UHGV virus genome: UHGV-1266211
Length of the DNA stretch: 51,046 nt
DNA from: a virus
Reading direction: 5' to 3' (one strand)
The notes under the pieces were generated by a model, which was not told the origin of the DNA, ran no database searches, and worked only from the letters and a program-made list of their open reading frames with translations. The translations under genes and the position numbers were made by a program. Each line of letters begins with the position of its first letter. Position 1 is the stretch's first letter. Below, one piece after another: positions 19,566 to 47,440 of this stretch.

Positions 19566-19699
19566 AGCCAGAAACGCTTGAGATACTCCGCGCGCGCTGG
19601 CAGCGCCTTCGCATTTATCGCTACCGGGGATCGGTGCTGGTGGATTATCGCATTCTTCGTAATTTTGTTCGTATCTATCATTCAGCAGGAGCAGCCTAA
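19562..19699 (+). CDS. Small protein (YlcG position)
   Basis: 45 aa between rusA and Q, as ylcG in DLP12. Confidence 0.35.
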   Translation: MKPETLEILRARWQRLRIYRYRGSVLVDYRILRNFVRIYHSAGAA

Positions 19700-20514
19700 T
19701 GAACCTCGAAAACACCGTGAAATATCACTTCGCCAAGTCGACGCTTATTAGCGACTCTCCGCGCGCCACTGGTTCAGATTCGCTGACCGGGACGGATGTC
19801 ATGGCGGCCATGGGCATGACCCAGGAACGTGCCGCCATGGGATACAGTGCCTTCCTCGGCAAGATGGGCATCAGTTACAACGATCGGGAGAGGGCGATTG
19901 AGTTGCTGTCTGAGTACGCGTTAACCAAATGCGATAAGGTTGCCGCGCTGCGCAAGCTGGACGATGCGGTTAAGCCACTGGTGATGCACCAGTTGGCCAC
20001 CTTCGCTTTTGAAGATTACTCCCGCAGCGCTGCGAGCGTTAAGCAGTGTGATTGTTGCAGCGGGCAGGGATTTATTGAGGCCGACGTGTTCACAATGAAA
20101 TCTCATTATTCAATGAGGATTCCTCAATGGGCGAAAGAGCTTGGTCAGTCACCGAGTGATTTCGAGGTTAAACGACAGGTTCGAGAGGTGGTTCGAGTGC
20201 TGTGCTCGAACTGCAAGGGGAAGAAGGTTGTCAGTTGTGCCTGCAATGATTGCCGGGGACGTGGGAAAGCCGTAGACCAGAAGGAAACGAAGAAACAGGG
20301 TGTGCCGGTTATGACTGACTGCAAGCGCTGCGGCGGGCGTGGATATGAACGCATTCCTTCAACTGAGGCCCACGCAGCTGTTTGCCAGATTACGGATGTA
20401 ATCAGCCTGGATACGTGGAAGAAGTCCGTTAAACCGTTCTATGATCAGCTGATTACGAAATTCGATATTGAAGAGGCATGGGCAGAAAACCAACTGAAAC
20501 AAATAACACGATAA
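19699..20514 (+). CDS. Late antiterminator Q-like protein
   Basis: 271 aa, multiple CxxC pairs (CDCCSG, CSNCKG, CACNDCRG, CKRCGGRG), directly upstream of the lysis genes. Confidence 0.75.
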   Translation: MNLENTVKYHFAKSTLISDSPRATGSDSLTGTDVMAAMGMTQERAAMGYSAFLGKMGISYNDRERAIELLSEYALTKCDKVAALRKLDDAVKPLVMHQLATFAFEDYSRSAASVKQCDCCSGQGFIEADVFTMKSHYSMRIPQWAKELGQSPSDFEVKRQVREVVRVLCSNCKGKKVVSCACNDCRGRGKAVDQKETKKQGVPVMTDCKRCGGRGYERIPSTEAHAAVCQITDVISLDTWKKSVKPFYDQLITKFDIEEAWAENQLKQITR

Positions 20515-20880: not shown

Positions 20881-20905
20881 AGCCTCGCTTATGCGGGGCT
20901 TTTCT
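20881..20905 (+). terminator. Terminator hairpin (copy 1 of a recurring motif)
   Basis: agcctcgc-ttat-gcggggct plus T4. Confidence 0.5.
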
Positions 20906-21018: not shown

Positions 21019-21297
21019 ATGACCAGAATGAGCACCATTTACAGCAGACTTTCATATGGAACAGGCACCACGCTGACCGGCTGCGGTGTATCAGCGAAGG
21101 CATATGCCGAAACAGCAAAAACAGCAAAAGAGGTGTCCTGGATGTTGGCCGACAGAATTGCAGGGTTAAGCCTGAGCGACTGGGCAATTATTGTCGGTAT
21201 CGCATGCACGGTAATCACCTGTGCAGTGAACTGGTATTTCCGCTGGAAAGAACGGGAGGATCGGCGCAATGGCTATGTCTCTAAAGCTGAAGAATAA
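21019..21297 (+). CDS. Holin (S21/pinholin-like), dual-start motif
   Basis: Met1-Thr-Arg-Met4 dual start; TM segment; C-terminal ...YFRWKEREDRR like S21 ...YFKIREDRRK. Confidence 0.75.
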   Translation: MTRMSTIYSRLSYGTGTTLTGCGVSAKAYAETAKTAKEVSWMLADRIAGLSLSDWAIIVGIACTVITCAVNWYFRWKEREDRRNGYVSKAEE

Positions 21298-21817
21298 ATT
21301 GAGCGCAGCGGTCGTTGGTTTGATTCTTGCCGGGGCTTCCGCACCCGTGATTCTCGATCAGTTTCTGGATGAGAAAGAGGGTAACAGCTTGACAGCATAT
21401 CGCGACGGCGGCGGACTCTGGACCATTTGCCGTGGTGCAACAATGGTTGATGGCAAGCCAGTAGTACAGGGCATGAAGCTGTCAGCTGAGAAATGCGCCC
21501 AGGTAAACGCCATTGAACGCGACAAGGCGCTGGCGTGGGTTGACCGAAATATCAAAGTACCACTGACCGAACCACAGAAGGTGGGTATTGCATCCTTCTG
21601 CCCGTATAACATCGGCCCCGGTAAATGCTTCCCATCGACCTTCTATAAGCGCATCAACGCAGGTGACCGCATCGGTGCATGCGAGGCAATCCGCTGGTGG
21701 ATTAAAGACGGTGGCCGTGATTGCCGTCTAACCAAAGGCCAGAAGAATGGCTGCTATGGTCAGGTTGAGCGACGGGACCAGGAAAGCGCGCTGGCGTGCT
21801 GGGGGTTAGACCAATGA
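21269..21817 (+). CDS. SAR endolysin (phage lysozyme with N-terminal signal-anchor-release domain)
   Basis: Gly/Ala-rich weak TM N-terminus then collinear similarity to P21 R (...W.KD...GC.....W...GG). Confidence 0.85.
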
Positions 21818-22362
21818 TCAGCGAGTCTGTTAAGACCTGGTGGAAAGCCGCCACGGTTTCAGCGCTTCTCATTGCCTCATTCGCCGCAGGTAGTGTGTGG
21901 ACGGAACGAGCATGGGAAAAGAAATGGGCAGATCGTAATAGTGAGGAGTCCTCTCAGGCAGAGAACGCTCAAACGGTTGCCCGTATGATTGAACAAGGGC
22001 GTGTAATTGCTCGCGATGAGGCTGTTAAAAATGCACAAGAACAGGCTGCAAAAGCAGCTGCGAATGCTGCTGGTCTGTCTGCCACTGTTAGCCAGCTGCG
22101 CACCGAAGCAACAAAACTTGCCATCCACCTGGATGCCGCAAAGCACACCGCAGATCTTGCCGCTACCGTCCGAAGCAAAACAACCGACACCAACGCAGGA
22201 TTGCTTGCCGACATGCTCGGAGATATTGCAGCAGAAGCTAAACGATATGCTGGAATCGCTGACGAACGCTACCGGGCAGGAATGACGTGTGAGCGCGTTT
22301 ACGACTCGGTGAGAGAGTCAAATAACGGGATCTGGCAAAAAGCGGGGACGAATCCCCGCTAG
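21814..22362 (+). CDS. Rz-like i-spanin
   Basis: N-terminal TM, Ala/Gln-rich coiled-coil; ATGA overlap with the endolysin. Confidence 0.7.
22064..22285 (+). CDS. Rz1-like o-spanin lipoprotein embedded in Rz (+1 frame)
   Basis: [12 protein letters not shown] lipobox, Pro-rich. Confidence 0.6.
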
Positions 22363-22751: not shown

Positions 22752-22776
22752 AGCCTCGCATTAGCGGGGCTTTTTT
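22752..22776 (+). terminator. Terminator hairpin (copy 2 of recurring motif)
   Basis: agcctcgc-atta-gcggggc plus T6. Confidence 0.55.
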
Positions 22777-35180: not shown

Positions 35181-35485
35181 GGCAGGTCGCCGCAGCATTG
35201 TATACGCCGGGACCGACGCTCGCGGAGCTGAGCGCTTTTGGTTTGACGCCTGAGGACGTGGAGGAAGAGGTGGGGATCCTGCCCTCGGTGTGGAGGTCCT
35301 TCACCATCTTCTCTTCCCTGGCGACCCAGTGGCGAGTCGGCGCGAGCGGGGCGACCGGCCTTGATTACAACGTTCTCCCCTGGATGTTCGAGTTACACGG
35401 GGTTGAGGATGCGGCGGCCTGCATGGCTGACCTTCAAATTATGGAAAGCGAGGCTCTCAAGGTAATGCATAAGGAGACGAAATAA
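35177..35485 (+). CDS. T extension of the G-T frameshift product
   Basis: -1 frame open from slippery site; ends with ATGA overlap at the tape measure start. Confidence 0.6.
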   Translation: MRQVAAALYTPGPTLAELSAFGLTPEDVEEEVGILPSVWRSFTIFSSLATQWRVGASGATGLDYNVLPWMFELHGVEDAAACMADLQIMESEALKVMHKETK

Positions 35486-38400
35486 TGACAGACCAGATCG
35501 CCTCGATTACTTTGCGGGCCGATGTTTCTGACCTGAAAACAGCCAGCAACGAACTGGATAAACTCGGCCAGGCGGCGGCCGGTGCTGTAGATAAAGCGGA
35601 TGATTTAAATAGCGTGTTCCGCGCTGGGGCTGAATCTGCGAAGCAAGGCAGCGAAGGACTCAAGGAGCAGCAGAACGCGCTCAAAGGGCTGCTGGAGAAT
35701 ATCGACCCGGTTACCAAGGCCTTAAACCGCCTGGATGAGCAGCAAGAATCGCTGCGGAAATTCCAGGCCAAAGGTTTCCTGGATACCGATACCTTTCAGG
35801 CATACAACAAAATCCTGGATGACACCCGCCTCAAGCTGACCGACACCGGAGAAGCCGCGGCGCGTGCTCAGGCCGAATTAGCCGCTACCCAGGCGGCAGA
35901 GAAGCAGTCCGCAGCGTTAAAGAACCTTCTTGGATCCATCGACCCGACTATCCGCGCGTTCAATTCGTTGGATGAACAGCACGCACAGCTGGTGGAACAT
36001 TTCGAAGCTGGGCGCATTAACGGTGCTCAGTTCGAGCACTTCAACACAATCCTTAACCAGACGCGTGAGCGCCTCTCTGGTGTCGCTGACGTACTACCAG
36101 AGGCGCTATCCCGGCAGGAAGCTGCTGCCCGGCGCGCTGGAATCTCCGTTGGTCAGTACAGCGCAGCAATGCGCACGCTTCCGGCGCAATTCACCGATAT
36201 CGCCACGCAGCTGGCTGGCGGTCAGTCGCCGTTCCTGATTCTGCTGCAACAGGGCGGGCAGATTAAAGACCAGTTCGGCTCGGTTCAGGGGGCGCTGTCC
36301 GGCGTCGGCGAATACATCCGCAGCATGGCTGGGATGATTAACCCTACCACAATCGCACTTGGTGGGCTGATTGGCACGATCGGCCTGCTGGCTGCCGCAG
36401 CGTATAACTCCTCGGAGCAATTTGAGCAGGTGGCACGCTCTGTCATCATGATGGGTGGGGCTGGCTTCTCCTCAATGCAGCAGCTCAACCAGGCCGCTGA
36501 GGAAGTGGCTGGCAAGACGAATACATCGATTAGCTCCACCGTCGATACGCTGGTTACGTTGAACGATACTGGCAAATATACCGCAAGCCAGATGAAGCAG
36601 GTCGCAACGACCATCACCCTCATGGGTAAGGCCGGAAATGATACCAAAGCGGCAATAAGCGACTTCGGAAAGATTGTCAGCGATCCGGTTAAAGGGCTTG
36701 CCAGCCTCAATGAACAATATGGTTTCGTTGATGAAGCCATGATCAAGCACATTATCCAGCTACGTAAGCAGAAGGGTGAGCAGGCGGCTGTTACCGAAGC
36801 TATTGAGCTGTTTGCAGGCGTCATGGCAAAGCGCGCAGAGGAGACCAACAAAGCGACCGATAATATCGGTCAAACGTGGGAAAACCTTAAAAAGAGCGCT
36901 TCTGACACCTTTGGCGATATAGGTATTACCGTGCGCGCATGGGGAAACCAGATCATTGATATTTTCGAACTGGTTAAATCCTCGATCAAAGACTTGTTCC
37001 TCAATATCACCTCTCTGGACGCCAAGTTCACCAGCACCATCGCTGGCTGGGCAGACAAAATCCCGGGTGGCGGTGCGCTGGCTAATTTCCTCGGCATGGA
37101 CGTTGAGGCAATGAAAAAGGCTGGAGCGGAGGCGGACAAAGAGATTGAGGCGAACAAAAAACGCTATAACGAGCTTTGGAAGCGCGTCACTGCGCCTAAC
37201 GCACAGGCAAACTATGAGGCTGAAGCGCGAGGGTCTAACGTAAAAGGTGATGGAGGAACAAGTCGAGAATCAAGAGACGCAGTCTCGAAGCTTGCACAAG
37301 ACTCAGCCAAAAAGACCAAAGAGGCAAAAGCCACGCTGGATGCTGGCGATCGCACTCTTGAGAACTACCGCGCCCAGGCCAGAACGTTAACTGAAACACT
37401 CGAAACGTTGCGCAAGACTGGGGAGACTCAGGTCAGATATACCGAGTTCAGCAAACAGCAATCCCATTTTGCCGAGCTGGACGAGGCTGCTAAGACCCGC
37501 GCGCTGACCGCACAGGAGAAATCTCTTCTATCGAACCGAGAGGCCATCCTCAACGCCGCCAAAGTTGTGGATCAGAAAAATAAGGAAGTCGAGGCCCAGC
37601 AGAAGATTAACGGCCTGGCGCAGCAGGCAAATAAGTATGTTACGCAGATGACTGAAAAGTCTGAGGCATTGCGTAGCGGGGCTGGGTTAAGTAGTCGCAT
37701 GGCCCAGCGAATGACCGAAGAGGCGCAGCTTCGGCAGGGCTGGCTAAATGGCGGTGGTAATCTAGAGGATGCTGGCTACGAGAAAGAGCTGGCAGCTCTT
37801 CGTAACTACTACGCCGAAGAGGATAAGCTACGGGGTGACTGGAAAGCAGGGGCAGTTAGTGGCTGGAATGAATATCTTGAGGCCGCCACGAATACCTATG
37901 ACGCCGTGAAGAACGTCGCCAGCTCCACGCTGACCGGCTTGAGCGACATGCTGACTGAGCTGATGATCACTGGCAAAGCATCAGTTAAAGAATTCGGTAA
38001 ATCCATGCTCAAGATGATCCTGGATGTTACGAACCGCCTCATGGTTGCCTACGCAGTGCAGGCCGCAATGGGATGGGTAAACGGAGGGGCAGGAGGTGGC
38101 AACACACCCGGTGGAGCATACGCGAACGCTGCTGCAGGCGTAACGTTCAACGCTAAAGGCGGAGTCTATGAATCGCCGGGCCTAAGCAAGTATGTGAATG
38201 GCGTCTACGATTCTCCTCAGTACTTCACGTTCCAGGGGGCATCTAAGTTTGCGAAAGGGGGGGTCTTTGGAGAGGCAGGGCCGGAAGCTATTATGCCGTT
38301 AGCTAAAGATTCAGCAGGGCGGTTGGGTGTACGCGCCCAAGGAGGTGGAAGTATTGCTCCTGTAATTAATACCGTCATTAATGTTGAGGCTAATGGTAAT

Positions 38401-38538
38401 GTATCAACCAGCACATCGTCGGATGGTGATGCAATGGCGCGTGCTTTAGCCAAGCAGATCAATGATCAGGCAAAAATGATAGTGCTCAATGAGCTTAAGC
38501 CTTCTGGCGCTATCTACAACTACATTAACAAGCGATAA
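35485..38538 (+). CDS. Tail tape measure protein
   Basis: 1017 aa, coiled-coil N-terminus, Gly-rich hydrophobic middle, position after G/G-T. Confidence 0.9.
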   Translation: MTDQIASITLRADVSDLKTASNELDKLGQAAAGAVDKADDLNSVFRAGAESAKQGSEGLKEQQNALKGLLENIDPVTKALNRLDEQQESLRKFQAKGFLDTDTFQAYNKILDDTRLKLTDTGEAAARAQAELAATQAAEKQSAALKNLLGSIDPTIRAFNSLDEQHAQLVEHFEAGRINGAQFEHFNTILNQTRERLSGVADVLPEALSRQEAAARRAGISVGQYSAAMRTLPAQFTDIATQLAGGQSPFLILLQQGGQIKDQFGSVQGALSGVGEYIRSMAGMINPTTIALGGLIGTIGLLAAAAYNSSEQFEQVARSVIMMGGAGFSSMQQLNQAAEEVAGKTNTSISSTVDTLVTLNDTGKYTASQMKQVATTITLMGKAGNDTKAAISDFGKIVSDPVKGLASLNEQYGFVDEAMIKHIIQLRKQKGEQAAVTEAIELFAGVMAKRAEETNKATDNIGQTWENLKKSASDTFGDIGITVRAWGNQIIDIFELVKSSIKDLFLNITSLDAKFTSTIAGWADKIPGGGALANFLGMDVEAMKKAGAEADKEIEANKKRYNELWKRVTAPNAQANYEAEARGSNVKGDGGTSRESRDAVSKLAQDSAKKTKEAKATLDAGDRTLENYRAQARTLTETLETLRKTGETQVRYTEFSKQQSHFAELDEAAKTRALTAQEKSLLSNREAILNAAKVVDQKNKEVEAQQKINGLAQQANKYVTQMTEKSEALRSGAGLSSRMAQRMTEEAQLRQGWLNGGGNLEDAGYEKELAALRNYYAEEDKLRGDWKAGAVSGWNEYLEAATNTYDAVKNVASSTLTGLSDMLTELMITGKASVKEFGKSMLKMILDVTNRLMVAYAVQAAMGWVNGGAGGGNTPGGAYANAAAGVTFNAKGGVYESPGLSKYVNGVYDSPQYFTFQGASKFAKGGVFGEAGPEAIMPLAKDSAGRLGVRAQGGGSIAPVINTVINVEANGNVSTSTSSDGDAMARALAKQINDQAKMIVLNELKPSGAIYNYINKR

Positions 38539-38551
38539 TTGAGAGGTTTTA

Positions 38552-38764
38552 ATGGACTTAAAAGTTGACGGCATCAATGTTTATGATGATGAGGAAGGAA
38601 AGATTGTTTCAGTAACCGTGCATGTAATGAGGGATGAATATCGAAGTCATGCAACGACATACGTTGAGCTCCCGTATTCTGATGCGCTGACAATCCATGA
38701 AATTCACACGCAGGCGCTCAATGCCGCCAAAGAGAAACTTAAGCTGATCGCAAGCAGCATCTGA
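38552..38764 (+). CDS. Hypothetical small protein (moron)
   Basis: 70 aa inserted between tape measure and M. Confidence 0.45.
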   Translation: MDLKVDGINVYDDEEGKIVSVTVHVMRDEYRSHATTYVELPYSDALTIHEIHTQALNAAKEKLKLIASSI

Positions 38765-38819
38765 TCGTTACATTCTGACATCCCCTGGTTAATATGTAAA
38801 AAACCATATTGTTCAGGGG

Positions 38820-39248
38820 ATGATAATGAAATTACTCTTCATTAGCGTTGTTGCGTTGTGTTTGGCCGGTTGTGCTACTGAAGCCGTTTTACCAAGCCAG
38901 GCGAAACAAGCACCCAAAGAACGATTGCTCAAGTTCCAGTCGCCAGGTGTAGGGGAACAGGCGAAGCTAATTGTGGTGCGCGATAAAGGATTTCTTGGAA
39001 GCGGTTGTTTCGTCGGCGTGTACCTAAACCAAGAGAAGGCAGCTATTTTGGATCCAGGTGAGAAGGCCGAATTTTACCTCAAACCGGGAGAATGGAATGT
39101 TGCTTTAATGGGGGAAGGAAAGATGTGCATCGCTGACAAGATACCTGCTGGAAGAGACTTTGTGCTCACTGCGAACACTACAAAAGCCGTCCGTTTATTT
39201 GCAGATCCGAGCGGAAACACTGACGTCAAAACACTGCCGAACCAATAG
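38820..39248 (+). CDS. Lipoprotein (moron in tail cluster)
   Basis: Signal peptide plus lipobox LAGC. Confidence 0.65.
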   Translation: MIMKLLFISVVALCLAGCATEAVLPSQAKQAPKERLLKFQSPGVGEQAKLIVVRDKGFLGSGCFVGVYLNQEKAAILDPGEKAEFYLKPGEWNVALMGEGKMCIADKIPAGRDFVLTANTTKAVRLFADPSGNTDVKTLPNQ

Positions 39249-39267
39249 CCCCCAATACCTAATAACC

Positions 39268-39291
39268 AGCCTCGTATCCGCGGGGCTTTTT
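39268..39291 (+). terminator. Terminator hairpin (copy 3 of recurring motif)
   Basis: agcctcg-tatccg-cggggct plus T5. Confidence 0.55.
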
Positions 39292-39709
39292 GTTGTTGCA
39301 GGTGGGCGGGGTGGTTAAAAAGTGAGCACCACATTCAAGGGGGCCGAAATATTACAGCAATCTTTGTTGTCGTGCATTCCAACCAAGTCATGTATTTTGT
39401 GCAAAAAGTGCTATTTATGGCCTTCTTGAACTCTTCAACCGGATCATAGGCCCAGCCTATCTCCTGAGAACGTGACAATAGTTTACTATTACCTGAGGGG
39501 TAACTTCTGCGAAAGTGTGGCTAACTTGCAAAGTGGCCGCGATAAAATTCGTCGAACATGCATCTATCTTCAGACATAGGCCCATTGCTCAAATATGACG
39601 AATGGTATTAAATTGTCCTCAACCACTTGAAGTGGTCATTAATTCTTTGGATGTGTTTACATCCTACAATTTGAGAAAGCACTGCCAAACGTGCATGAGG
39701 GTGATAATC

Positions 39710-39889
39710 ATGGGTCACGCATTAAAAAAGGCAGATCGCTTGTACATTCCGCCTCGTGACAAATCCACGGTGGCGAAACCTCGTGCAGCGATCAGCGAAG
39801 CATGTTCACACACTGGTCAAGTTAAAAATGCCTTTGAGTTTGGGTTTGCTCGTTATGAGAAGGCGATGGAAGAACTTTCAAAGGTCTGA
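39710..39889 (+). CDS. Small protein upstream of Doc (candidate antitoxin)
   Basis: 59-aa ORF ending 10 bp before the Doc start; no recognisable Phd motif. Confidence 0.3.
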   Translation: MGHALKKADRLYIPPRDKSTVAKPRAAISEACSHTGQVKNAFEFGFARYEKAMEELSKV

Positions 39890-39899
39890 GTAGAAACGG

Positions 39900-40397
39900 A
39901 TGACGATAGAGTATGTTGAAGGAGTCAATTATCTTTCCATTGACGATATCGTTTACATCAATAGGTCTCTGATCGAGACTCAGACGCCAAATGAGCCAAT
40001 AGGCGTACTGAATCCGAACAACCTCAGTTCTTCACAGTCCAGACCAAGTACGATTCGATATTATGAGCAGACAGACGATATGTTTCGCCTGTCTGCTGTT
40101 CTTATTGAAAGCCTGATCCAGAATCATCCATTCGCAAATGCAAACAAACGCACCGCTATGATGGCTGGATACGTATTCCTGTTGCTGAATGGATATGAGC
40201 TTACAGCACCCAGTGATGAGGTCGTAACCATCGCAGAGGGTTTGGCTCGTAAGGATTACTCAGTGGAAGACCTGGAAAATTGGTTATGCCACTGGTCCCG
40301 AGAGTACGATTCCAGAACGTTATGTGCAACAGGCGGAAATTCGCTTCAGGCTCTCGTGGCGACTTCACACTACATCCGAATCATATCGAATAACTGA
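39900..40397 (+). CDS. Fic/Doc-family toxin (death-on-curing-like)
   Basis: HPFANANKRTAMMAGYVFLLLNGY matches the Fic/Doc HxFx(D/N)(A/G)NKR motif. Confidence 0.8.
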   Translation: MTIEYVEGVNYLSIDDIVYINRSLIETQTPNEPIGVLNPNNLSSSQSRPSTIRYYEQTDDMFRLSAVLIESLIQNHPFANANKRTAMMAGYVFLLLNGYELTAPSDEVVTIAEGLARKDYSVEDLENWLCHWSREYDSRTLCATGGNSLQALVATSHYIRIISNN

Positions 40398-40443
40398 ATC
40401 CGCTAAGAGGCGGTTTTTTTGCCGACCAATACTGAATTATATA

Positions 40444-40465
40444 ACCCGCTTCGGCGGGTTTTTTT
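40444..40465 (+). terminator. Strong rho-independent terminator 12 bp upstream of tail gene M
   Basis: acccgc-ttcg-gcgggt plus T7; weaker hairpin at 40400-40420. Confidence 0.65.
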
Positions 40466-40476
40466 ATGGAGCAAAT

Positions 40477-40827
40477 ATGGCCGTTGAAACATACAACTGG
40501 CGATCTCAGCTCGGGGCTGGCGCGATTGAATATAGTCAAACGGTGCGTGCTGCGCAGTTTGGCGATGGCTACGAACAGGTGGCCGAGAACGGCATCAACT
40601 CCACGGCGATCCAGGTGCCAATGAAACACGTTGGCAGTGAGTCTGAGGTAAACGCAGTGCGCGACTTCCTCCTGGCTCATACCGTTAAAGCTTTTATCAT
40701 CACGCCGCCCGGCGAAGCGAAGGGGCTTTATCGGGTAGTCGCCGATTCCGTACGGAAAAATCAGATCAGCAGCAAGTTTGCTGAGCTGACGTTCACCATC
40801 AAACGGGCTTACGGAGTGTATGCATAA
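40477..40827 (+). CDS. Minor tail protein M
   Basis: ...VRAAQFGDGYEQ... similar to lambda M FGDGYSQ region. Confidence 0.8.
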   Translation: MAVETYNWRSQLGAGAIEYSQTVRAAQFGDGYEQVAENGINSTAIQVPMKHVGSESEVNAVRDFLLAHTVKAFIITPPGEAKGLYRVVADSVRKNQISSKFAELTFTIKRAYGVYA

Positions 40828-42982: not shown

Positions 42983-45900
42983 ATGGAAGCGATCACTGGT
43001 GCAAAGGGTGGCAGCCAGAAGCAGCACACACCTGTAGAACAGCCCGATTCGGCTCAGTCAATGGCGCGCTGCCGCATGCTGCTGGCGCTCGGGGAGGGGG
43101 AGTTTGCTGGTGGCCTGGATGCGACCCGGATATTCCTGGACGGTACGCCGTTGGGAAACCCCGACGGAACGATGAATTTTGAAAATGTGTCATGGGATTT
43201 CCGGCCTGGCACACAGACCCAGACACCAATACCGGGATTCCCTGCAGTCGAGAATGAAACTACGGTTGGGGTATCGCTGACAAAGGCCACACCATGGACC
43301 CGCGCACTGAGTAACACCCAGATTGACGCGGTGCTGGTTCGTATTGGCATCCCTGGGTTACAGCAGCAGGAAAACGATGGGGATATTGTCGGCACTACGG
43401 TTCAGTACCATATTGATCTGGCGGTGGACGGTGGCGCTTACTCGACAGTCATGACGAAAACCGTCACAGAGAAGCTCAGCTCGCTCTATGAACTAACCCA
43501 CCGTATTAATCTTCCCAAAGCCAGCACTGGCTGGCAAATTCGAGTGGTGCGTGACACCGATGACAGCACCAGCCAGATGCTGCAGAACAAAACGCAGGTG
43601 CAAGCGATTACTGAAGTGATCGATGCTCGCCTGCGATATCCACACACAGCGCTGCTGTACGTGTCCTTTAACGCAAAGTCATTCAACAACATCCCTAAGA
43701 TTTCCTGCATGCCGAAGGGGCGCATCATCCGAATCCCTTCGAACTATGATCCAATAGCGCGGACTTATAGCGGAACATGGGACGGGACGTTTAAATGGGG
43801 CTGGACGAATAACCCGGCGTGGATTTGGTTCGATGTTCTGACTGAGCCGCGCTTCGGCCTTGGGCGCCGCGTGACGCCAGAAATGCTCGATAAGTGGGAG
43901 CTCTATCGCATCGCCCAGCGCTGCGACCAGAAGGTACCCGACGGGAAAGGCGGAAGCGGTACCGAGCCACGCTTCATGTTTGACGTTTACATCCAGTCCC
44001 AGGCTGATGCCTGGCAGGTGATTAAAGATATTGCCGCGGGCTTCAACGGAATGACTTTCTGGGGCAACAACATGTTCAATGTTGTCTCTGACATGCCGGC
44101 GGACACTACGAAGTTGCAGATCCTCACTCGCGCATCAGTGGTGGGTAAGCCGGTGTACTCGAGTGGCAGTGAGAAAAACCGATTCTCCAGCGCGCTGATT
44201 AACTTCAGCGATCCGGATAACCACTACCAGGACCGCACCACGGCAGTGATGTTTCCGGAACTGGTAAGGCAGTTCAAGTTTAAGCAGACACAAATCACTG
44301 CGATCGGTTGTACGCGTGAGAGCGAGGCGCAGCGGCGTGGCGGGTGGGCGGTGTATTCCAACTCCCTTGACCGCATTATCACGCTTCAGACTGGACTTGA
44401 TGGCTTTGTATTCGTGCCGGGCACCGTATTTGCGTTTGCAGATGAACGCCTGTCAGGGCGCGTTTACGGCGGGCGTATCACCGGGTATAACGCTGGTCTT
44501 AAGGCCGTGACCATTGACCGGGGCACCAGTGCGGTGGCGGGCGATACGCTGATGATTCGCACCCAGGGCGGTACCGTTGAAAGCCGGGTGATACAGGCCG
44601 TAAATGGCACGCAGCTGATCCTGTCCACGCCGTTCACGGCGGCGCCATTACCTAATGCCGTATTCGTCATTGATGCTGGTCAGCTGCGCCTGCAGTATTT
44701 CCGGGTAACGAACCTAAAATTTGATGATGAGGAAAACACCTTCACCATTACCGGTGCGGAGTATAACGCGTCGAAATACGACGCCGTTGATAACAATGCT
44801 CGCCTCGATACTCCTCCGATAAGCCTGATTCCGACCGGGCTAGTTAACCAGCCGACCAACATCGTGGTATCGAGCTATGATGCGGTTCGCCAGGGGCAAC
44901 GCGTGGCCACGCTAACCGCCTCGTGGGATGCGCCAATTGATAAAGACGGCAAACTGCAGTCGGACGTAATAGCGTACCGGGCACAGTGGAAGCGCGGAAA
45001 TAACGAATGGGTAAACGTGCCTGAAACCGGGTTACGAAATATCGAAGTGCCTGGCATTTTCGAGGGCGATTACCTTGTGCGCGTCCGTGCGATTAACTCT
45101 GGGGGAGCGTCCAGCCTTTGGGCCACGTCTGCGTTGACCCATCTTACCGGCCGCACCGGTGAAGTGCCCAAACCTGTCGGACTAACAGCAACAGAGGATG
45201 TTGTATTTGGGATCAACATTACATGGGGTTTCCCCGCAGATACCGCCGACACCCTGAGCACGGAACTGCAATACAGCGCTTCAGTCGATGGGGCAAATCC
45301 AATGCTTTTGGCGTCGGTGCCGTATCCTCAGAAACTCTATCAGCAGATGGGGCTGAAGGCAGGGCAGGAATTCTGGTACCGGGCACGGCTGGTTGACCGC
45401 ATCGGGAATCAGAGCGACTGGACAGACTGGGTGCGCGGGCAGGCCAGCATCGATGTTTCCGATATCACCGATGCAATCCTGGAGGACATGAAAGGCTCCG
45501 ATACGTTCAAAGACCTGATCGAGAACGCGGTGGACAGCAATGAAAAAATTGCTGGCATGGCTGACGAAATTAAAAACCATGCCGACGAACTCGAGCAGCA
45601 GGCGAAAGACATCCTGGAGAACGCTGACGGGCTGGCTCAGGCCGAAGTGAAGATCGACGAGATTTCTGTGTCGATGGACGGCATGACGGGAGGAGTGAAG
45701 AACTCGGCAATCGCGATTATTCAGAATGGGCTGGCGCAGGTGGTAAGCCGTCGCTCGCAGACCGCCACGAACGCCGGGAACAGTGCCAGTATAGACAGAG
45801 TGGATACTACGATTGCCGATACCAGCCAGGCGGTCGCACGCGCGCTGGTCACACTGGATGCAGAAGCTGGTGGCAATATCTCTAACTCAACGGACCTGAC

Positions 45901-46462
45901 AGAAACTCTTGCTGATTTCACCCAGGCTTCGGCAACAAAAATCAACACTCTGACTGTTAAATCAGGCGAAAACAGTGCAGCGATAAACGTCAACGCACAG
46001 GCTATAGCAGATGTAAACGGTAACCTCAGCGCGATGTATAACATCAAGGTGGGGGTGTCCAGTAACGGGCAGTATTACGCTGCCGGGATGGGTATTGGGG
46101 TTCAAAATACACCCTCCGGCATGCAGTCACAGGTAATCTTCCTGGCAGACCGTTTCGCCGTGACTACTATGGTCGGCGGGACTGTAACACTGCCGTTCGT
46201 TATCCAGAATGGCCAGGCCATTATCAGGGATACAGTCATTGGCGACGGGACCATAAGCAATGCAAAAATTGGCAATTACATCCAGTCGAACAATTATGTT
46301 GCCGGCTCTGTTGGCTGGAAACTGGATAAGTCCGGGACGTTTGAGAACTACGGTTCGACAGCTGGGGAGGGAGCCATGAAGCAGACCAACCAGACAATCA
46401 GCGTCAAGGATGGCAACAACGTTCTGAGAGTGCAGGTTGGCCGATTAACGGGGGTGTTCTGA
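42983..46462 (+). CDS. Host specificity protein J (central tail fiber / tip)
   Basis: 1159 aa, position after I, fibronectin-like middle region. Confidence 0.9.
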   Translation: MEAITGAKGGSQKQHTPVEQPDSAQSMARCRMLLALGEGEFAGGLDATRIFLDGTPLGNPDGTMNFENVSWDFRPGTQTQTPIPGFPAVENETTVGVSLTKATPWTRALSNTQIDAVLVRIGIPGLQQQENDGDIVGTTVQYHIDLAVDGGAYSTVMTKTVTEKLSSLYELTHRINLPKASTGWQIRVVRDTDDSTSQMLQNKTQVQAITEVIDARLRYPHTALLYVSFNAKSFNNIPKISCMPKGRIIRIPSNYDPIARTYSGTWDGTFKWGWTNNPAWIWFDVLTEPRFGLGRRVTPEMLDKWELYRIAQRCDQKVPDGKGGSGTEPRFMFDVYIQSQADAWQVIKDIAAGFNGMTFWGNNMFNVVSDMPADTTKLQILTRASVVGKPVYSSGSEKNRFSSALINFSDPDNHYQDRTTAVMFPELVRQFKFKQTQITAIGCTRESEAQRRGGWAVYSNSLDRIITLQTGLDGFVFVPGTVFAFADERLSGRVYGGRITGYNAGLKAVTIDRGTSAVAGDTLMIRTQGGTVESRVIQAVNGTQLILSTPFTAAPLPNAVFVIDAGQLRLQYFRVTNLKFDDEENTFTITGAEYNASKYDAVDNNARLDTPPISLIPTGLVNQPTNIVVSSYDAVRQGQRVATLTASWDAPIDKDGKLQSDVIAYRAQWKRGNNEWVNVPETGLRNIEVPGIFEGDYLVRVRAINSGGASSLWATSALTHLTGRTGEVPKPVGLTATEDVVFGINITWGFPADTADTLSTELQYSASVDGANPMLLASVPYPQKLYQQMGLKAGQEFWYRARLVDRIGNQSDWTDWVRGQASIDVSDITDAILEDMKGSDTFKDLIENAVDSNEKIAGMADEIKNHADELEQQAKDILENADGLAQAEVKIDEISVSMDGMTGGVKNSAIAIIQNGLAQVVSRRSQTATNAGNSASIDRVDTTIADTSQAVARALVTLDAEAGGNISNSTDLTETLADFTQASATKINTLTVKSGENSAAINVNAQAIADVNGNLSAMYNIKVGVSSNGQYYAAGMGIGVQNTPSGMQSQVIFLADRFAVTTMVGGTVTLPFVIQNGQAIIRDTVIGDGTISNAKIGNYIQSNNYVAGSVGWKLDKSGTFENYGSTAGEGAMKQTNQTISVKDGNNVLRVQVGRLTGVF

Positions 46463-46463
46463 T

Positions 46464-46766
46464 ATGGCTTATGGAATACAGACCTGGGATGCTTCGGGAA
46501 ACCCCAACAACTACGGAATCAAGCCCGTTTCCGTTGTTGGACGTATACAACTTGCCGCCGGACAAAACTCCGGCAGCTGGTCTTTCACTGTACCCTCAGG
46601 AATGAAGGTCGGTTTTGCGCTCTCACTTGATGAAGGAGGTAACAGCGTAGGGAGGAGCATTGTCGCGTCAGGGAACACAATAACCGTAACCGCAGCCTCT
46701 TCTGTGGGCCTGGGTAATTACCCGGCCTCTAAATGTGAGGTGGTCGTTTTCATGGAGAAAGCATAA
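46464..46766 (+). CDS. Hypothetical tail-associated protein
   Basis: 100 aa coupled to J; shares WDASG / SGSW motifs with the next gene. Confidence 0.5.
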   Translation: MAYGIQTWDASGNPNNYGIKPVSVVGRIQLAAGQNSGSWSFTVPSGMKVGFALSLDEGGNSVGRSIVASGNTITVTAASSVGLGNYPASKCEVVVFMEKA

Positions 46767-47440
46767 TGGCCGAATTTGGCGCGATGATATTAATGGATAA
46801 CGGGAATCCCTTTGTAACGCCACAATCAACGCCTTTCTGTCTTTACGGGAAGTATACCTTCAATTCATCCGCGAATGGCAGTTCTCAGCAGGTTGCTCAA
46901 AATATCGCTTTAAACGCTGATTACCCAGTGATGGTTTTTATCAAAACCACCAATACAGCACAGCCCACTCCGGTTATGTCTTACAGGAACGGCGGTAATG
47001 TGTATGTTGCTGGTGTTAATCCCTACAACCAAAGTTTCACTTTAACGGCGTACGTTTTTGCCATATTCCCGCAGATATTACCGAAATGGGGTTTGGCAAT
47101 ATGGGATGCGAGCGGAAAGCTTGTGTTAACTAATGAGTCCCGTGTGCTATCAGACCTGCAGACGGTTGGCACGCCTGGTGCAAACGGCGGGATAAATATT
47201 GACCAGACGCTGAGCGGGTCATGGGCCGTTGCACCTGCTCAGTTGGGTCAGACCATCATTGTGAATAATTCAACCCAGCCTCCGACTATCTACACGATAA
47301 ATGCTTATTCTTCATGCAGGTTTGACGGGGCCAATACGAGGATAAACGCAGGGGGGACCTCCACTGGGGCAGGTTCACCTGGAGGGGGAACGAATACTGG
47401 CATTTCATTAACCGCCATAAATACAGCGGCCTATGATTGA
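46766..47440 (+). CDS. Hypothetical tail-associated protein
   Basis: 224 aa; ATGA-type coupling. Confidence 0.5.
   Translation: MAEFGAMILMDNGNPFVTPQSTPFCLYGKYTFNSSANGSSQQVAQNIALNADYPVMVFIKTTNTAQPTPVMSYRNGGNVYVAGVNPYNQSFTLTAYVFAIFPQILPKWGLAIWDASGKLVLTNESRVLSDLQTVGTPGANGGINIDQTLSGSWAVAPAQLGQTIIVNNSTQPPTIYTINAYSSCRFDGANTRINAGGTSTGAGSPGGGTNTGISLTAINTAAYD

What the first reader, a model, noticed from the sequence alone, without database searches (positions are those of the whole stretch)
38552..39291. Lipoprotein moron between tape-measure and M
A 142-aa lipoprotein (lipobox LAGC) and a 70-aa protein are inserted into the tail operon and end in a terminator of the recurring agcctcg…cggggct type. 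Prophage lipoproteins beside tail or receptor-binding genes (Cor, Llp) typically block the receptor used by the phage itself, giving superinfection exclusion.
Basis: inference. Interest (0 to 1): 0.5.

Follow-up and report, generated by a model that had tools for sequence, protein, structure and literature searches.

The report
Prophage lipoprotein cassette in tail operon
A prophage carries, between two tail genes, a self-contained add-on gene for a small outer-membrane-anchored protein from a large uncharacterised phage family; it most likely helps the lysogen keep out other phages, but this is ordinary in kind and untested.

Summary
Between the tape-measure gene (35485-38538) and tail gene M (40477-40827) lie a 70-aa ORF, a lipoprotein ORF (lipobox LAGC; probable start 38826, 140 aa) and an intrinsic terminator (39268-39297). 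The insert is larger than reported. It runs to 40476 and also holds a ~320-nt conserved non-coding stretch and an antitoxin/Doc toxin pair.

These are separate modules. Relatives carry the lipoprotein without the 70-aa gene or Doc, and the reverse. GC is 0.41-0.50 against 0.53-0.56 in the tail genes, which fits a moron.

The lipoprotein belongs to PHROG 890 (E 8e-41), about 1,300 clusters at 50% identity. It has no Pfam, NCBIfam, PADLOC or PDB match and a generic beta-sandwich fold. It is not homologous to Cor, Llp, Rtp45 or the mEp021 exclusion lipoprotein.

Family members sit in three tail-tip slots (H-M, K-I, I-J), after cI in Vibrio phages, after Q, beside Abi/toxin genes, and as a retained remnant in Serratia. 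pN/pS is 0.03-0.13.

In relatives, the post-tape-measure slot swaps at least five families of exported proteins behind one conserved leader hairpin that covers the ribosome-binding site.

Envelope-level superinfection exclusion is the best reading (about 0.5). It rests on context only, and I found no strict co-variation with the J receptor-binding end.

The parts
35485..38538 (+). Tape-measure gene H (left border of the accessory slot)
   Evidence: PF06791 TMP_2 1e-52 and PF09718 2e-19
38552..38764 (+). 70-aa cytoplasmic ORF (p70), PHROG 2891, function unknown. It is a module independent of the lipoprotein.
   Evidence: phrog_2891 1.5e-26. It always lies 13 nt after the tape-measure stop and is followed by different cargo in L043, L045, L058, L093. 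It is absent from L014 and L057, which carry the same lipoprotein. No signal peptide is visible in the sequence.
38767..38795 (+). Candidate sigma-70 promoter: -35 GTTACA (38767-38772), 17-nt spacer, -10 TAATAT (38790-38795). The -10 lies in the 5' arm of the leader hairpin.
   Evidence: Read. It matches 8 of 12 positions, below the scanner's threshold (one search reports nothing here). Seven of the other 12 distinct leaders have GTTACA-N17-TATCAT or TATTAT (8-9 of 12). Hypothesis only.
38779..38822 (+). Leader hairpin whose 3' arm covers the Shine-Dalgarno sequence (CAGGGG) of the lipoprotein gene
   Evidence: -24.6 kcal/mol, z -4.1, 0 of 200 shuffles fold as well. The same hairpin precedes five different cargo families in 13 distinct leaders. 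90% of cells pair against 27-52% in slid registers. 2 of 15 pairs show compensatory change, but shuffles are not significant.
38826..39248 (+). Lipoprotein gene (140 aa; alternative start 38820 gives 142 aa). PHROG 890, beta-sandwich, lipobox LAGC with Cys16, +2 residue Ala, conserved Cys61 and Cys101.
   Evidence: phrog_890 7.8e-41. Invariant C16, C61 and C101 in 31 homologues. AlphaFold2 pLDDT 83.4 with eight strands. pN/pS 0.03-0.13 against close relatives.
39268..39297 (+). Intrinsic terminator at the 3' end of the lipoprotein cassette
   Evidence: 8-bp stem with 5 GC pairs, then TTTTTGTTGTT. Conserved in L014 and L026 and in most element-X loci.
39290..39612 (.). Element X: a conserved non-coding stretch that precedes variable cargo in many prophages
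   Evidence: 77% identical to HK639 and 93% to SW-37. An exact 21-mer occurs in 49 IMG/VR contigs. No conserved ORF or codon periodicity. No supported RNA structure on either strand.
39710..39889 (+). Antitoxin-like gene (59 aa; the longest ORF starts at 39602)
   Evidence: phrog_2208 5e-37 over residues 37-95 of the long ORF. It lies directly upstream of Doc.
39900..40397 (+). Doc (death-on-curing) family toxin
   Evidence: PF02661 Fic 2e-12. TIGR01550 DOC_P1 1.3e-41. phrog_577 Doc-like toxin 4e-49. Motif HPFANANKRT is visible in the translation.
40400..40470 (+). Two tandem terminators that close the accessory block
   Evidence: 40400-40413 and 40443-40460, each followed by a T-run. The second is identical to the terminator before J in L021.
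40477..40827 (+). Minor tail protein M (right border)
   Evidence: PF05939 1.8e-19

Best explanation
The gap between the tape-measure gene and gene M of this Q-antiterminated lambdoid prophage is a composite accessory-gene hotspot. The unit made of leader hairpin, lipoprotein gene (38826-39248) and terminator is a self-contained, horizontally exchanged cassette, i.e. a moron. It encodes a lipoprotein of about 13 kDa. [quoted passage not shown] The most likely function is envelope-level exclusion of incoming phages. Either it binds the periplasmic face of an outer-membrane receptor and makes it unusable, as Llp does with FhuA and Rtp45 with LptDE. Or it blocks passage of the tail tip or tape measure through the periplasm. 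Either way it would protect the lysogen, and possibly keep progeny from being wasted on cell debris. Shown here: the gene, the lipobox, cassette mobility, the terminator, the composition shift, purifying selection, the family's distribution and its neighbours. Inferred: outer-membrane location, expression from the prophage, the target, and the exclusion phenotype.
For: Cassette behaviour: the 98-99% identical gene occurs without p70 and without Doc in E. roggenkampii L014, behind a different first gene in E. hormaechei L026, and in L057. The family (phrog_890) occupies the H-M slot (window, L014, L026, HK639), the K-I slot (mEp390, E. coli, phiAH14a, P0079, P0180) and the I-J slot (L021, L022, the second copy in L014). 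A terminator follows it in each slot. Positions typical of lysogeny-expressed genes: directly after the cI repressor in Vibrio H20-like phages, beside a repressor in SSU5, and after antiterminator Q in Rodentibacter. Retention after prophage decay: a K fragment, the intact lipoprotein and an I fragment sit among Serratia chromosomal genes. Defence neighbours: Doc in the window, YafO in HK639, AbiTii plus T5orf172, HEPN_AbiU2, and a weak Lit-like U49 hit. In 22 of 27 occupied H-M slots the first cargo is a small exported protein, drawn from at least 5 interchangeable families behind one conserved leader. That pattern is what a competition-driven hotspot would look like. Purifying selection gives pN/pS 0.03-0.13. 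GC is 0.41-0.50 against 0.53-0.56. Q is present, so late transcription can read through the terminators. Precedent from the literature: lipoproteins inside the structural gene cluster of mEpimmI phages exclude cognate phages, and their types track the receptor (PMC11893012). [quoted passage not shown] Exclusion genes are linked to receptor-binding-protein loci (PMC8594841).
Confidence: 0.5

Rival explanations
1. It is a host-fitness or virulence lipoprotein in the manner of lambda Bor/Iss. It would change envelope properties such as serum or stress resistance or adhesion, without acting on phages.
For: It is predicted to be an outer-membrane lipoprotein carried as a moron. An intact copy is retained in a decayed Serratia prophage remnant. 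Homologues occur in non-phage chromosomal contexts in Pseudomonas and Acinetobacter. Selection is purifying rather than diversifying. There is no co-variation with J.
Against: No Bor (or any other) Pfam or NCBIfam match. The family repeatedly sits next to Abi and toxin-antitoxin genes and inside tail-tip clusters. It shares a slot with at least 5 interchangeable exported protein families, which looks like phage-phage competition.
Confidence: 0.2
2. It is a late, lytic-cycle factor rather than a lysogenic-conversion gene. It would be made with the tail proteins, either to mask receptors on lysing cells and debris so that progeny are not lost, or to remodel the envelope at release.
For: The gene lies inside the late tail operon. 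It is tightly packed in the K-I slot, about 30 nt after K. No strong promoter was found. The K-I position is conserved down to about 30-35% identity. Q-modified polymerase would read through the terminators. The literature states that exclusion factors also prevent adsorption to cell fragments (PMC12685063).
Against: The leader hairpin sequesters the ribosome-binding site on any read-through transcript. Family members also sit after cI and beside repressors, positions expressed in lysogens. The gene survives without any phage in Serratia. The phage has its own lysis cassette elsewhere, at 21019-22362.
Confidence: 0.12
3. It interferes with another envelope machine rather than with phage entry. 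Examples are a decoy of the type VI secretion lipoprotein TssJ, or a conjugation surface-exclusion factor.
Confidence: 0.05
4. It is a hitch-hiking ORF with no present function.
For: No function can be assigned by homology.
Against: pN/pS is 0.03-0.13. The lipobox and two further cysteines are invariant across 31 homologues. About 1,309 clusters exist. The structure prediction is confident.
Confidence: 0.03

Closest known systems
Morons of lambdoid tail operons (HK97 gene 15 as prototype; PMC3594210)
   Same: An extra gene inside the tail operon next to the tape-measure gene. It has its own terminator and a deviant GC content, is absent from close relatives, and encodes an envelope protein. 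HK97 gp15 is a proven exclusion factor.
   Different: HK97 gp15 is an inner-membrane protein located between the chaperone and tape-measure genes. Here the product is a predicted outer-membrane lipoprotein located after the tape-measure gene. No sequence relationship was tested or expected. The promoter here is only a weak candidate.
T5 Llp and Rtp45: small periplasm-facing lipoproteins that bind FhuA or LptDE from inside and abolish receptor-binding-protein attachment (PMC9586334, PMC12685063)
   Same: A phage-encoded lipoprotein with predicted inner-leaflet outer-membrane anchoring, facing the periplasm. The proposed mode of action is the same.
   Different: Llp and Rtp45 are about 6 kDa and are encoded next to the receptor-binding-protein gene. 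The window protein is about 13 kDa, a beta-sandwich, and about 3.7 kb upstream of J. No PDB sequence or fold match was found.
Cor (phrog_1119) and the mEpimmI Lpp exclusion lipoproteins (Pfam PF24052; PMC11893012)
   Same: Lipoproteins of temperate coliphages encoded within or beside the tail gene cluster. Their types correlate with the receptor, and they exclude cognate phages when expressed.
   Different: They are different families. mEp021 Lpp021 is 72 aa and hits PF24052 at 5.6e-31. The window protein hits neither PF24052 nor phrog_1119. Co-variation with the J C-terminus was not seen.
PHROG 890 'lipoprotein' / remote DUF2846 (PF11008)
   Same: The window protein is a clear member of phrog_890 (7.8e-41). 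An identical nr entry is named DUF2846. The Vibrio and SSU5 relatives give sub-threshold DUF2846 hits.
   Different: Neither family has any assigned function. The window protein itself gives no DUF2846 hit even at E = 10.
Ltp of Streptococcus phage TP-J34 (PMC3952083)
   Same: A prophage lipoprotein that mediates exclusion at the cell envelope. This is the alternative mechanism considered here.
   Different: Gram-positive host, surface-exposed, unrelated in sequence, and encoded in the lysogeny module.

Membership tests
Moron (Hendrix/Juhala sense) | Extra gene present at a junction where close relatives lack it or carry something else | tested here: met
   The H-M gap is 7-40 nt in 10 loci and 490-4950 nt with varied content in 27. 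L014 has the lipoprotein alone.
Moron (Hendrix/Juhala sense) | Own transcription terminator downstream | tested here: met
   39268-39297. Terminators also follow the gene in the K-I slot (L003) and the I-J slot (L021).
Moron (Hendrix/Juhala sense) | Own promoter upstream | tested here: inconclusive
   The scanner finds none on the + strand at 38600-38820. By eye there is GTTACA-N17-TAATAT (8 of 12). Relatives have 8-9 of 12. L021 has a 9 of 12 site with TG.
Moron (Hendrix/Juhala sense) | Base composition differs from flanking genes | tested here: met
   GC is 0.41-0.50 across 38300-40400 against 0.53-0.56 in H and in M-K.
Moron (Hendrix/Juhala sense) | Expressed from the repressed prophage | not testable with these tools
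   Needs RNA-seq or 5'-RACE of a lysogen.
PHROG 890 lipoprotein family | Profile match over the full length | tested here: met
   E 7.8e-41, residues 3-138 against profile 1-133 of 136.
Bacterial lipoprotein (Lgt/Lsp/Lol pathway) | n-region, hydrophobic h-region, lipobox [LVI][ASTVI][GAS]C; residue +2 not Asp implies outer-membrane sorting | tested here: met
   MKLLFISVVALCLAG|CAT read directly. Cys16 is invariant and +2 Ala is conserved in 31 homologues. Actual lipidation and localisation cannot be tested here.
Cor superinfection exclusion protein (phrog_1119) | Sequence membership | tested here: not met
   The only PHROG hit at E <= 0.01 is phrog_890.
Pfam PF24052 Phage_lipoprotein (contains the mEp021 exclusion lipoprotein Lpp021) | Sequence membership | tested here: not met
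   No Pfam hit at E <= 10. The positive control Lpp021 hits at 5.6e-31.
Receptor-linked exclusion lipoproteins (Llp, Rtp45, Cor type) | Encoded next to the receptor-binding determinant, with alleles that co-vary with it | tested here: not met
   The gene ends 3.7 kb before J starts. Lipoprotein identity against identity of the last 200 aa of J is discordant in several lineages. The sample is small.
Receptor-linked exclusion lipoproteins (Llp, Rtp45, Cor type) | Expression blocks adsorption or infection by cognate phage | not testable with these tools
   Needs plating and adsorption assays.
DUF2846 (PF11008) | Pfam profile match above the gathering score | tested here: not met
   No hit for the window protein. 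Relatives VaK_0031 and SSU5_122 score 20-21 bits against a cut-off of 34.3. Remote homology is possible.
Lambda Bor/Iss lipoprotein | Sequence membership | tested here: not met
   No Pfam or NCBIfam hit of any kind apart from a signal-peptide-level 0.36 hit to YgdI/YgdR.
Doc/Fic type II toxin (neighbouring gene 39900-40397) | Fic/Doc domain with the motif HxFx(D/N)(A/G)NKR, preceded by a small antitoxin gene | tested here: met
   PF02661 2e-12, TIGR01550 1.3e-41, and HPFANANKRT in the translation. The upstream 59-aa gene is phrog_2208. It is not a recognisable Phd.

The most novel reading that the evidence does not exclude
PHROG 890 could be a large, unrecognised family (about 1,300 clusters) of exclusion lipoproteins, structurally unlike Llp, Cor or Rtp45. 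The tape-measure/M junction could be a dedicated cassette-exchange hotspot with two compartments: envelope proteins first, then toxin-antitoxin or Abi-like cargo behind the conserved element X. In that hotspot a promoter embedded in the 5' arm of the leader hairpin would make prophage-initiated transcripts translatable. The long late transcript would keep the ribosome-binding site sequestered.
Probability: 0.2. Interest if true: 0.65.

Novelty: new member of a known kind. Interest (0 to 1): 0.4.

Why it matters
If the lipoprotein is an exclusion factor, it would define a new and widespread structural class of such proteins, and it would point to the receptor or entry step used by a large group of lambdoid prophages of Enterobacteriaceae. 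The slot architecture gives a practical rule for finding envelope-acting and abortive-infection genes in prophage tail operons. That architecture is one conserved leader and one conserved ~320-nt spacer with interchangeable cargo. If the lipoprotein is only a host-fitness gene, the finding is a routine moron.

Tried and rejected
- **Family libraries.** Pfam at E <= 10, NCBIfam and PADLOC gave nothing for the lipoprotein or p70.
- **PDB by sequence.** Neither the single sequence nor the 31-sequence profile gave a hit.
- **p70.** tblastn of p70 against 50,697 phage records found no match. Only 3 close homologues exist in the word-indexed database.
- **Element X as a gene.** There is no conserved ORF and no 3-nt periodicity.
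- **Element X as a structured RNA.** RNAalifold gave -5.2 kcal/mol on the + strand and -3.1 on the - strand with negligible covariation. z-scores were -1.2 and -0.5. Rfam gave only two sub-threshold terminator-like hits and nothing at gathering score in the whole window.
- **Hairpin covariation.** The stem is kept, but the shuffle control is not significant, so I do not claim covariation support.
- **Lipoprotein against J C-terminus.** The comparison is discordant and the sample is small.
- **Virion structural lipoprotein.** Rejected because of the export signal, the positions after cI and after Q, and the Serratia remnant.
- **Literature.** I found no experimental work on this family. The DUF2846 papers concern an unrelated Bdellovibrio protein. 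The Vibrio H20-like phage paper does not contain the word lipoprotein.

Full report
**1. What is in the sequence**

The window is a lambdoid prophage. It has a Q antiterminator at 19699-20514 (PF03589, 4e-46) and a lambda-type tail module:
- chaperones G and T,
- tape-measure protein H at 35485-38538,
- M at 40477-40827,
- then L, K, I, and J at 42983-46462.

Between H and M lie 1.9 kb that are not tail genes:
- a 70-aa ORF (38552-38764), starting 13 nt after the H stop codon;
- a lipoprotein ORF (38820/38826-39248);
- a terminator (39268-39297);
- about 320 nt with no ORF;
- a 59-aa antitoxin-like gene (39710-39889);
- a Doc toxin (39900-40397), with the HPFANANKRT motif visible in the translation;
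- two more terminators (40400-40423 and 40443-40470).

The AGCCYC...GRGGCT terminator type occurs four times against 0.08 expected. One copy (20881) lies about 370 nt after Q, and one (22752) follows the lysis genes. The GGGG of the ribosome-binding site abuts the ATG at 38820 and lies 6 nt before the ATG at 38826. Most homologues are 140 aa. I therefore take 38826 as the start.

**2. The block is made of independent modules**

- E. roggenkampii locus L014 carries a 98.6% identical lipoprotein directly between H and M, with neither the 70-aa gene nor Doc.
- E. hormaechei L026 has a different exported protein first, then the lipoprotein, then unrelated cargo.
- The 70-aa gene (phrog_2891, unknown function, no signal peptide) always follows H by 13 nt. 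In L043 and L045 a different gene follows it.
- GC across 38300-40400 is 0.41-0.50 against 0.53-0.56 in the flanking tail genes.

This is the classical moron picture. Q-modified polymerase would be expected to read through the internal terminators. That expectation rests on established lambda biology, not on a test here.

**3. The protein**

- It matches PHROG 890 'lipoprotein' at 7.8e-41. It matches nothing in Pfam even at E = 10, nor in NCBIfam, PADLOC or PDB sequences.
- An identical nr entry is labelled DUF2846. The Vibrio and SSU5 relatives give sub-threshold DUF2846 hits of 20-21 bits against a cut-off of 34.3. The link to DUF2846 is remote at best, and that family has no known function.
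- Across 31 homologues the lipobox cysteine, Ala at +2 and two further cysteines (C61, C101) are invariant.
- From this I infer Lol-dependent sorting to the outer membrane and a periplasmic disulfide.
- AlphaFold2 gives an eight-stranded beta-sandwich (pLDDT 83.4, pTM 0.77).
- A profile search of 1.84 billion representatives finds 1,309 clusters at E <= 1e-3 and 557 at E <= 1e-10. Nearly all are stand-alone proteins of about 140 aa.
- Against close relatives pN/pS is 0.03-0.13. The gene is under purifying selection.

**4. Where the family lives**

- H-M slot: the window, L014, L026, and HK639 with a 31% identical member.
- K-I slot: mEp390, E. coli prophages, Atlantibacter, Pseudomonas phage phiAH14a, and the distant representatives P0079 and P0180.
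- I-J slot: L021, L022, and a second paralogue in L014.
- A terminator follows the gene in each slot.
- Outside tail clusters it lies:
  - 15 nt after the cI repressor gene in Vibrio anguillarum H20-like phages,
  - next to a repressor in the phage-plasmid SSU5,
  - after antiterminator Q in a Rodentibacter prophage,
  - in ordinary chromosomal surroundings in Pseudomonas and Acinetobacter.
- In Serratia, a K fragment, an intact lipoprotein gene and an I fragment are all that remains of a prophage among chromosomal genes.
- I picked five distant representatives by round id numbers:
  - two were in K-I slots;
  - one was next to AbiTii and T5orf172;
  - one was next to HEPN_AbiU2;
  - one was in a phage-like stretch with a weak Lit-peptidase hit.

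**5. The slot as a hotspot**

I examined 37 loci that hold both H and M.
- The H-M gap is empty (7-40 nt) in 10 and occupied in 27.
- In 22 of the 27, the first cargo (or the first after p70) is a small exported protein from one of at least five interchangeable families:
  - the window type and the HK639 type of phrog_890;
  - an 'ACKPS' lipoprotein (phrog_2320);
  - a signal-anchored 'MKALKIGL' protein;
  - a membrane-anchored protein (phrog_35526);
  - others.
- All of these families are of unknown function.
- They share one leader: a hairpin (window 38779-38822; -24.6 kcal/mol, z -4.1) whose 3' arm contains the Shine-Dalgarno sequence, followed by GGGGATGATAATG.
- In 13 distinct leaders, 90% of cells pair against 27-52% in slid registers, and two pairs change on both sides. 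The shuffle control is not significant, so the stem may be kept simply because the sequence is kept.
- K-I-slot copies have a shorter hairpin that also covers the Shine-Dalgarno sequence. I-J-slot, HK639 and Vibrio copies do not.
- In 8 of the 13 leaders (the window included), a -35-like GTTACA lies exactly 17 nt before a -10-like TAWYAT located in the 5' arm (the window version matches 8 of 12).
- This suggests a hypothesis I could not test. A transcript starting there would lack the 5' arm and be translatable. The read-through late transcript would fold and hide the ribosome-binding site.
- These loci were recovered through the lipoprotein, p70 or element X. They are not a random sample.

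**6. The second compartment**

- The roughly 320 nt after the terminator (element X, 39290-39612) are 77% identical to HK639 and 93% to Salmonella phage SW-37.
- An exact 21-mer from X occurs in 49 viral contigs.
- X sits in H-M or K-I slots or elsewhere. About half the time the same antitoxin/Doc pair follows it. Otherwise other cargo follows, for example YafO in HK639.
- X has no conserved ORF, no codon periodicity and no supported RNA structure on either strand.
- Its 3' end carries a promoter-like TTGCTY-N15/16-TATWAA.
- I read X as a shared promoter or leader region, or a recombination linker for swapping cargo. Its role remains open.

**7. Function**

Homology assigns no function, so the argument rests on context.

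*Points in favour of envelope-level phage exclusion*
- The predicted topology matches that of proven exclusion lipoproteins.
- The family appears in lysogeny-type positions (after cI, after Q) and survives in a phage-less remnant.
- It sits next to toxin-antitoxin and Abi genes.
- It shares its slot with several alternative exported proteins.
- There is literature precedent:
  - Lipoproteins inside the structural cluster of mEpimmI phages exclude cognate phages, and their types track the receptor (PMC11893012).
  - Exclusion genes are linked to receptor-binding loci in small siphophages (PMC8594841).
  - HK97 gp15 is a tail-operon moron with exclusion activity (PMC3594210).

*Points against*
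- The protein belongs to none of those families. The mEp021 Lpp021 control hits PF24052 at 5.6e-31 and the window protein does not.
- It is about twice their size.
- It is not adjacent to the receptor-binding end of J.
- Its divergence does not track divergence of the J C-terminus.
- Selection is purifying rather than diversifying.
- Some relatives are plainly chromosomal.

I put exclusion at about 0.5. Within that, receptor masking is somewhat more likely than a block of tail-tip or tape-measure passage. The rivals are:
- a Bor-like host-fitness role, about 0.2;
- a purely late lytic role, about 0.12;
- interference with another envelope machine, about 0.05;
- no function, about 0.03.

**8. 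Verdict**

The feature is real and correctly described, but it is larger and more modular than reported. It is a typical moron carrying a member of a large, catalogued but uncharacterised phage lipoprotein family. It is a new member of a known kind. Interest is moderate. It comes from the breadth of the family, its habitual residence in tail-tip clusters, and the two-compartment cassette slot with its conserved leader.

Noticed in passing
window 39290-39612: Element X is a ~320-nt conserved non-coding stretch between the lipoprotein terminator and the Doc module. Its exact 21-mer TTTTGTGCAAAAAGTGCTATT (39395) occurs in 49 IMG/VR contigs, in H-M or K-I slots or elsewhere, ahead of Doc or other cargo. 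It has no conserved ORF and no supported RNA structure on either strand. Its 3' end is promoter-like.
   Followed up: partly
window 38767-38822: A leader hairpin covers the lipoprotein's ribosome-binding site. A -10-like TAATAT lies in its 5' arm and a -35-like GTTACA lies 17 nt upstream. The same leader precedes five unrelated exported-protein families in relatives. It may give transcript-specific control of translation.
   Followed up: partly
window 39710-40397: An antitoxin-like gene (phrog_2208) and a Doc toxin (TIGR01550 1.3e-41) form a pair inside the tail operon, closed by two terminators. The same pair follows element X in about 25 other viral contigs, in both H-M and K-I slots.
   Followed up: partly
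window 38552-38764: The 70-aa ORF (phrog_2891) always lies 13 nt after the tape-measure stop in the few relatives that have it. Different cargo follows it in each. It has no signal peptide and its function is unknown.
   Followed up: partly
L014:9015-9413: The E. roggenkampii prophage carries a second, divergent phrog_890 lipoprotein (E 4.5e-8) in the I-J slot, in addition to the H-M copy. That makes two paralogues in one tail-tip cluster.
   Followed up: no
L015:5685-6657 (also L016, L017): Serratia chromosomes keep only a K fragment, an intact lipoprotein gene and an I fragment, set among ordinary chromosomal genes. This is a domesticated remnant of a K-I-slot cassette.
   Followed up: partly
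L042:4314-5414 (Vibrio phage VaK): A family member (36% identity over 62% of the query) lies 15 nt downstream of the cI repressor gene on the same strand. The arrangement recurs in the other Vibrio anguillarum phage records that matched (25 Vibrio records in all).
   Followed up: no
window 46464-47440: Two genes directly after J match phrog_557 'outer membrane protein' and phrog_425 'membrane associated protein' (moron category), like N15 gp22/gp23. They are further envelope-directed accessory genes in the same tail module.
   Followed up: no
window 40443-40470 and L021:10466-10493: The identical terminator-plus-junction AACCCGCTTCGGCGGGTTTTTTTATGGA closes the accessory block before M in the window and before J in L021. 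The same 3' junction is therefore reused in different slots.
   Followed up: no
window 20881-20900 and 22752-22771: Two more terminators of the AGCCTCG...CGGGGCT type are present. The first lies about 370 nt after the Q antiterminator gene (19699-20514), where tR' would be expected. The second follows the lysis genes.
   Followed up: no
L099:1389-2915 and L100:501-1103: Distant family members sit immediately upstream of AbiTii plus T5orf172 and of HEPN_AbiU2 genes on short metagenomic contigs.
   Followed up: no
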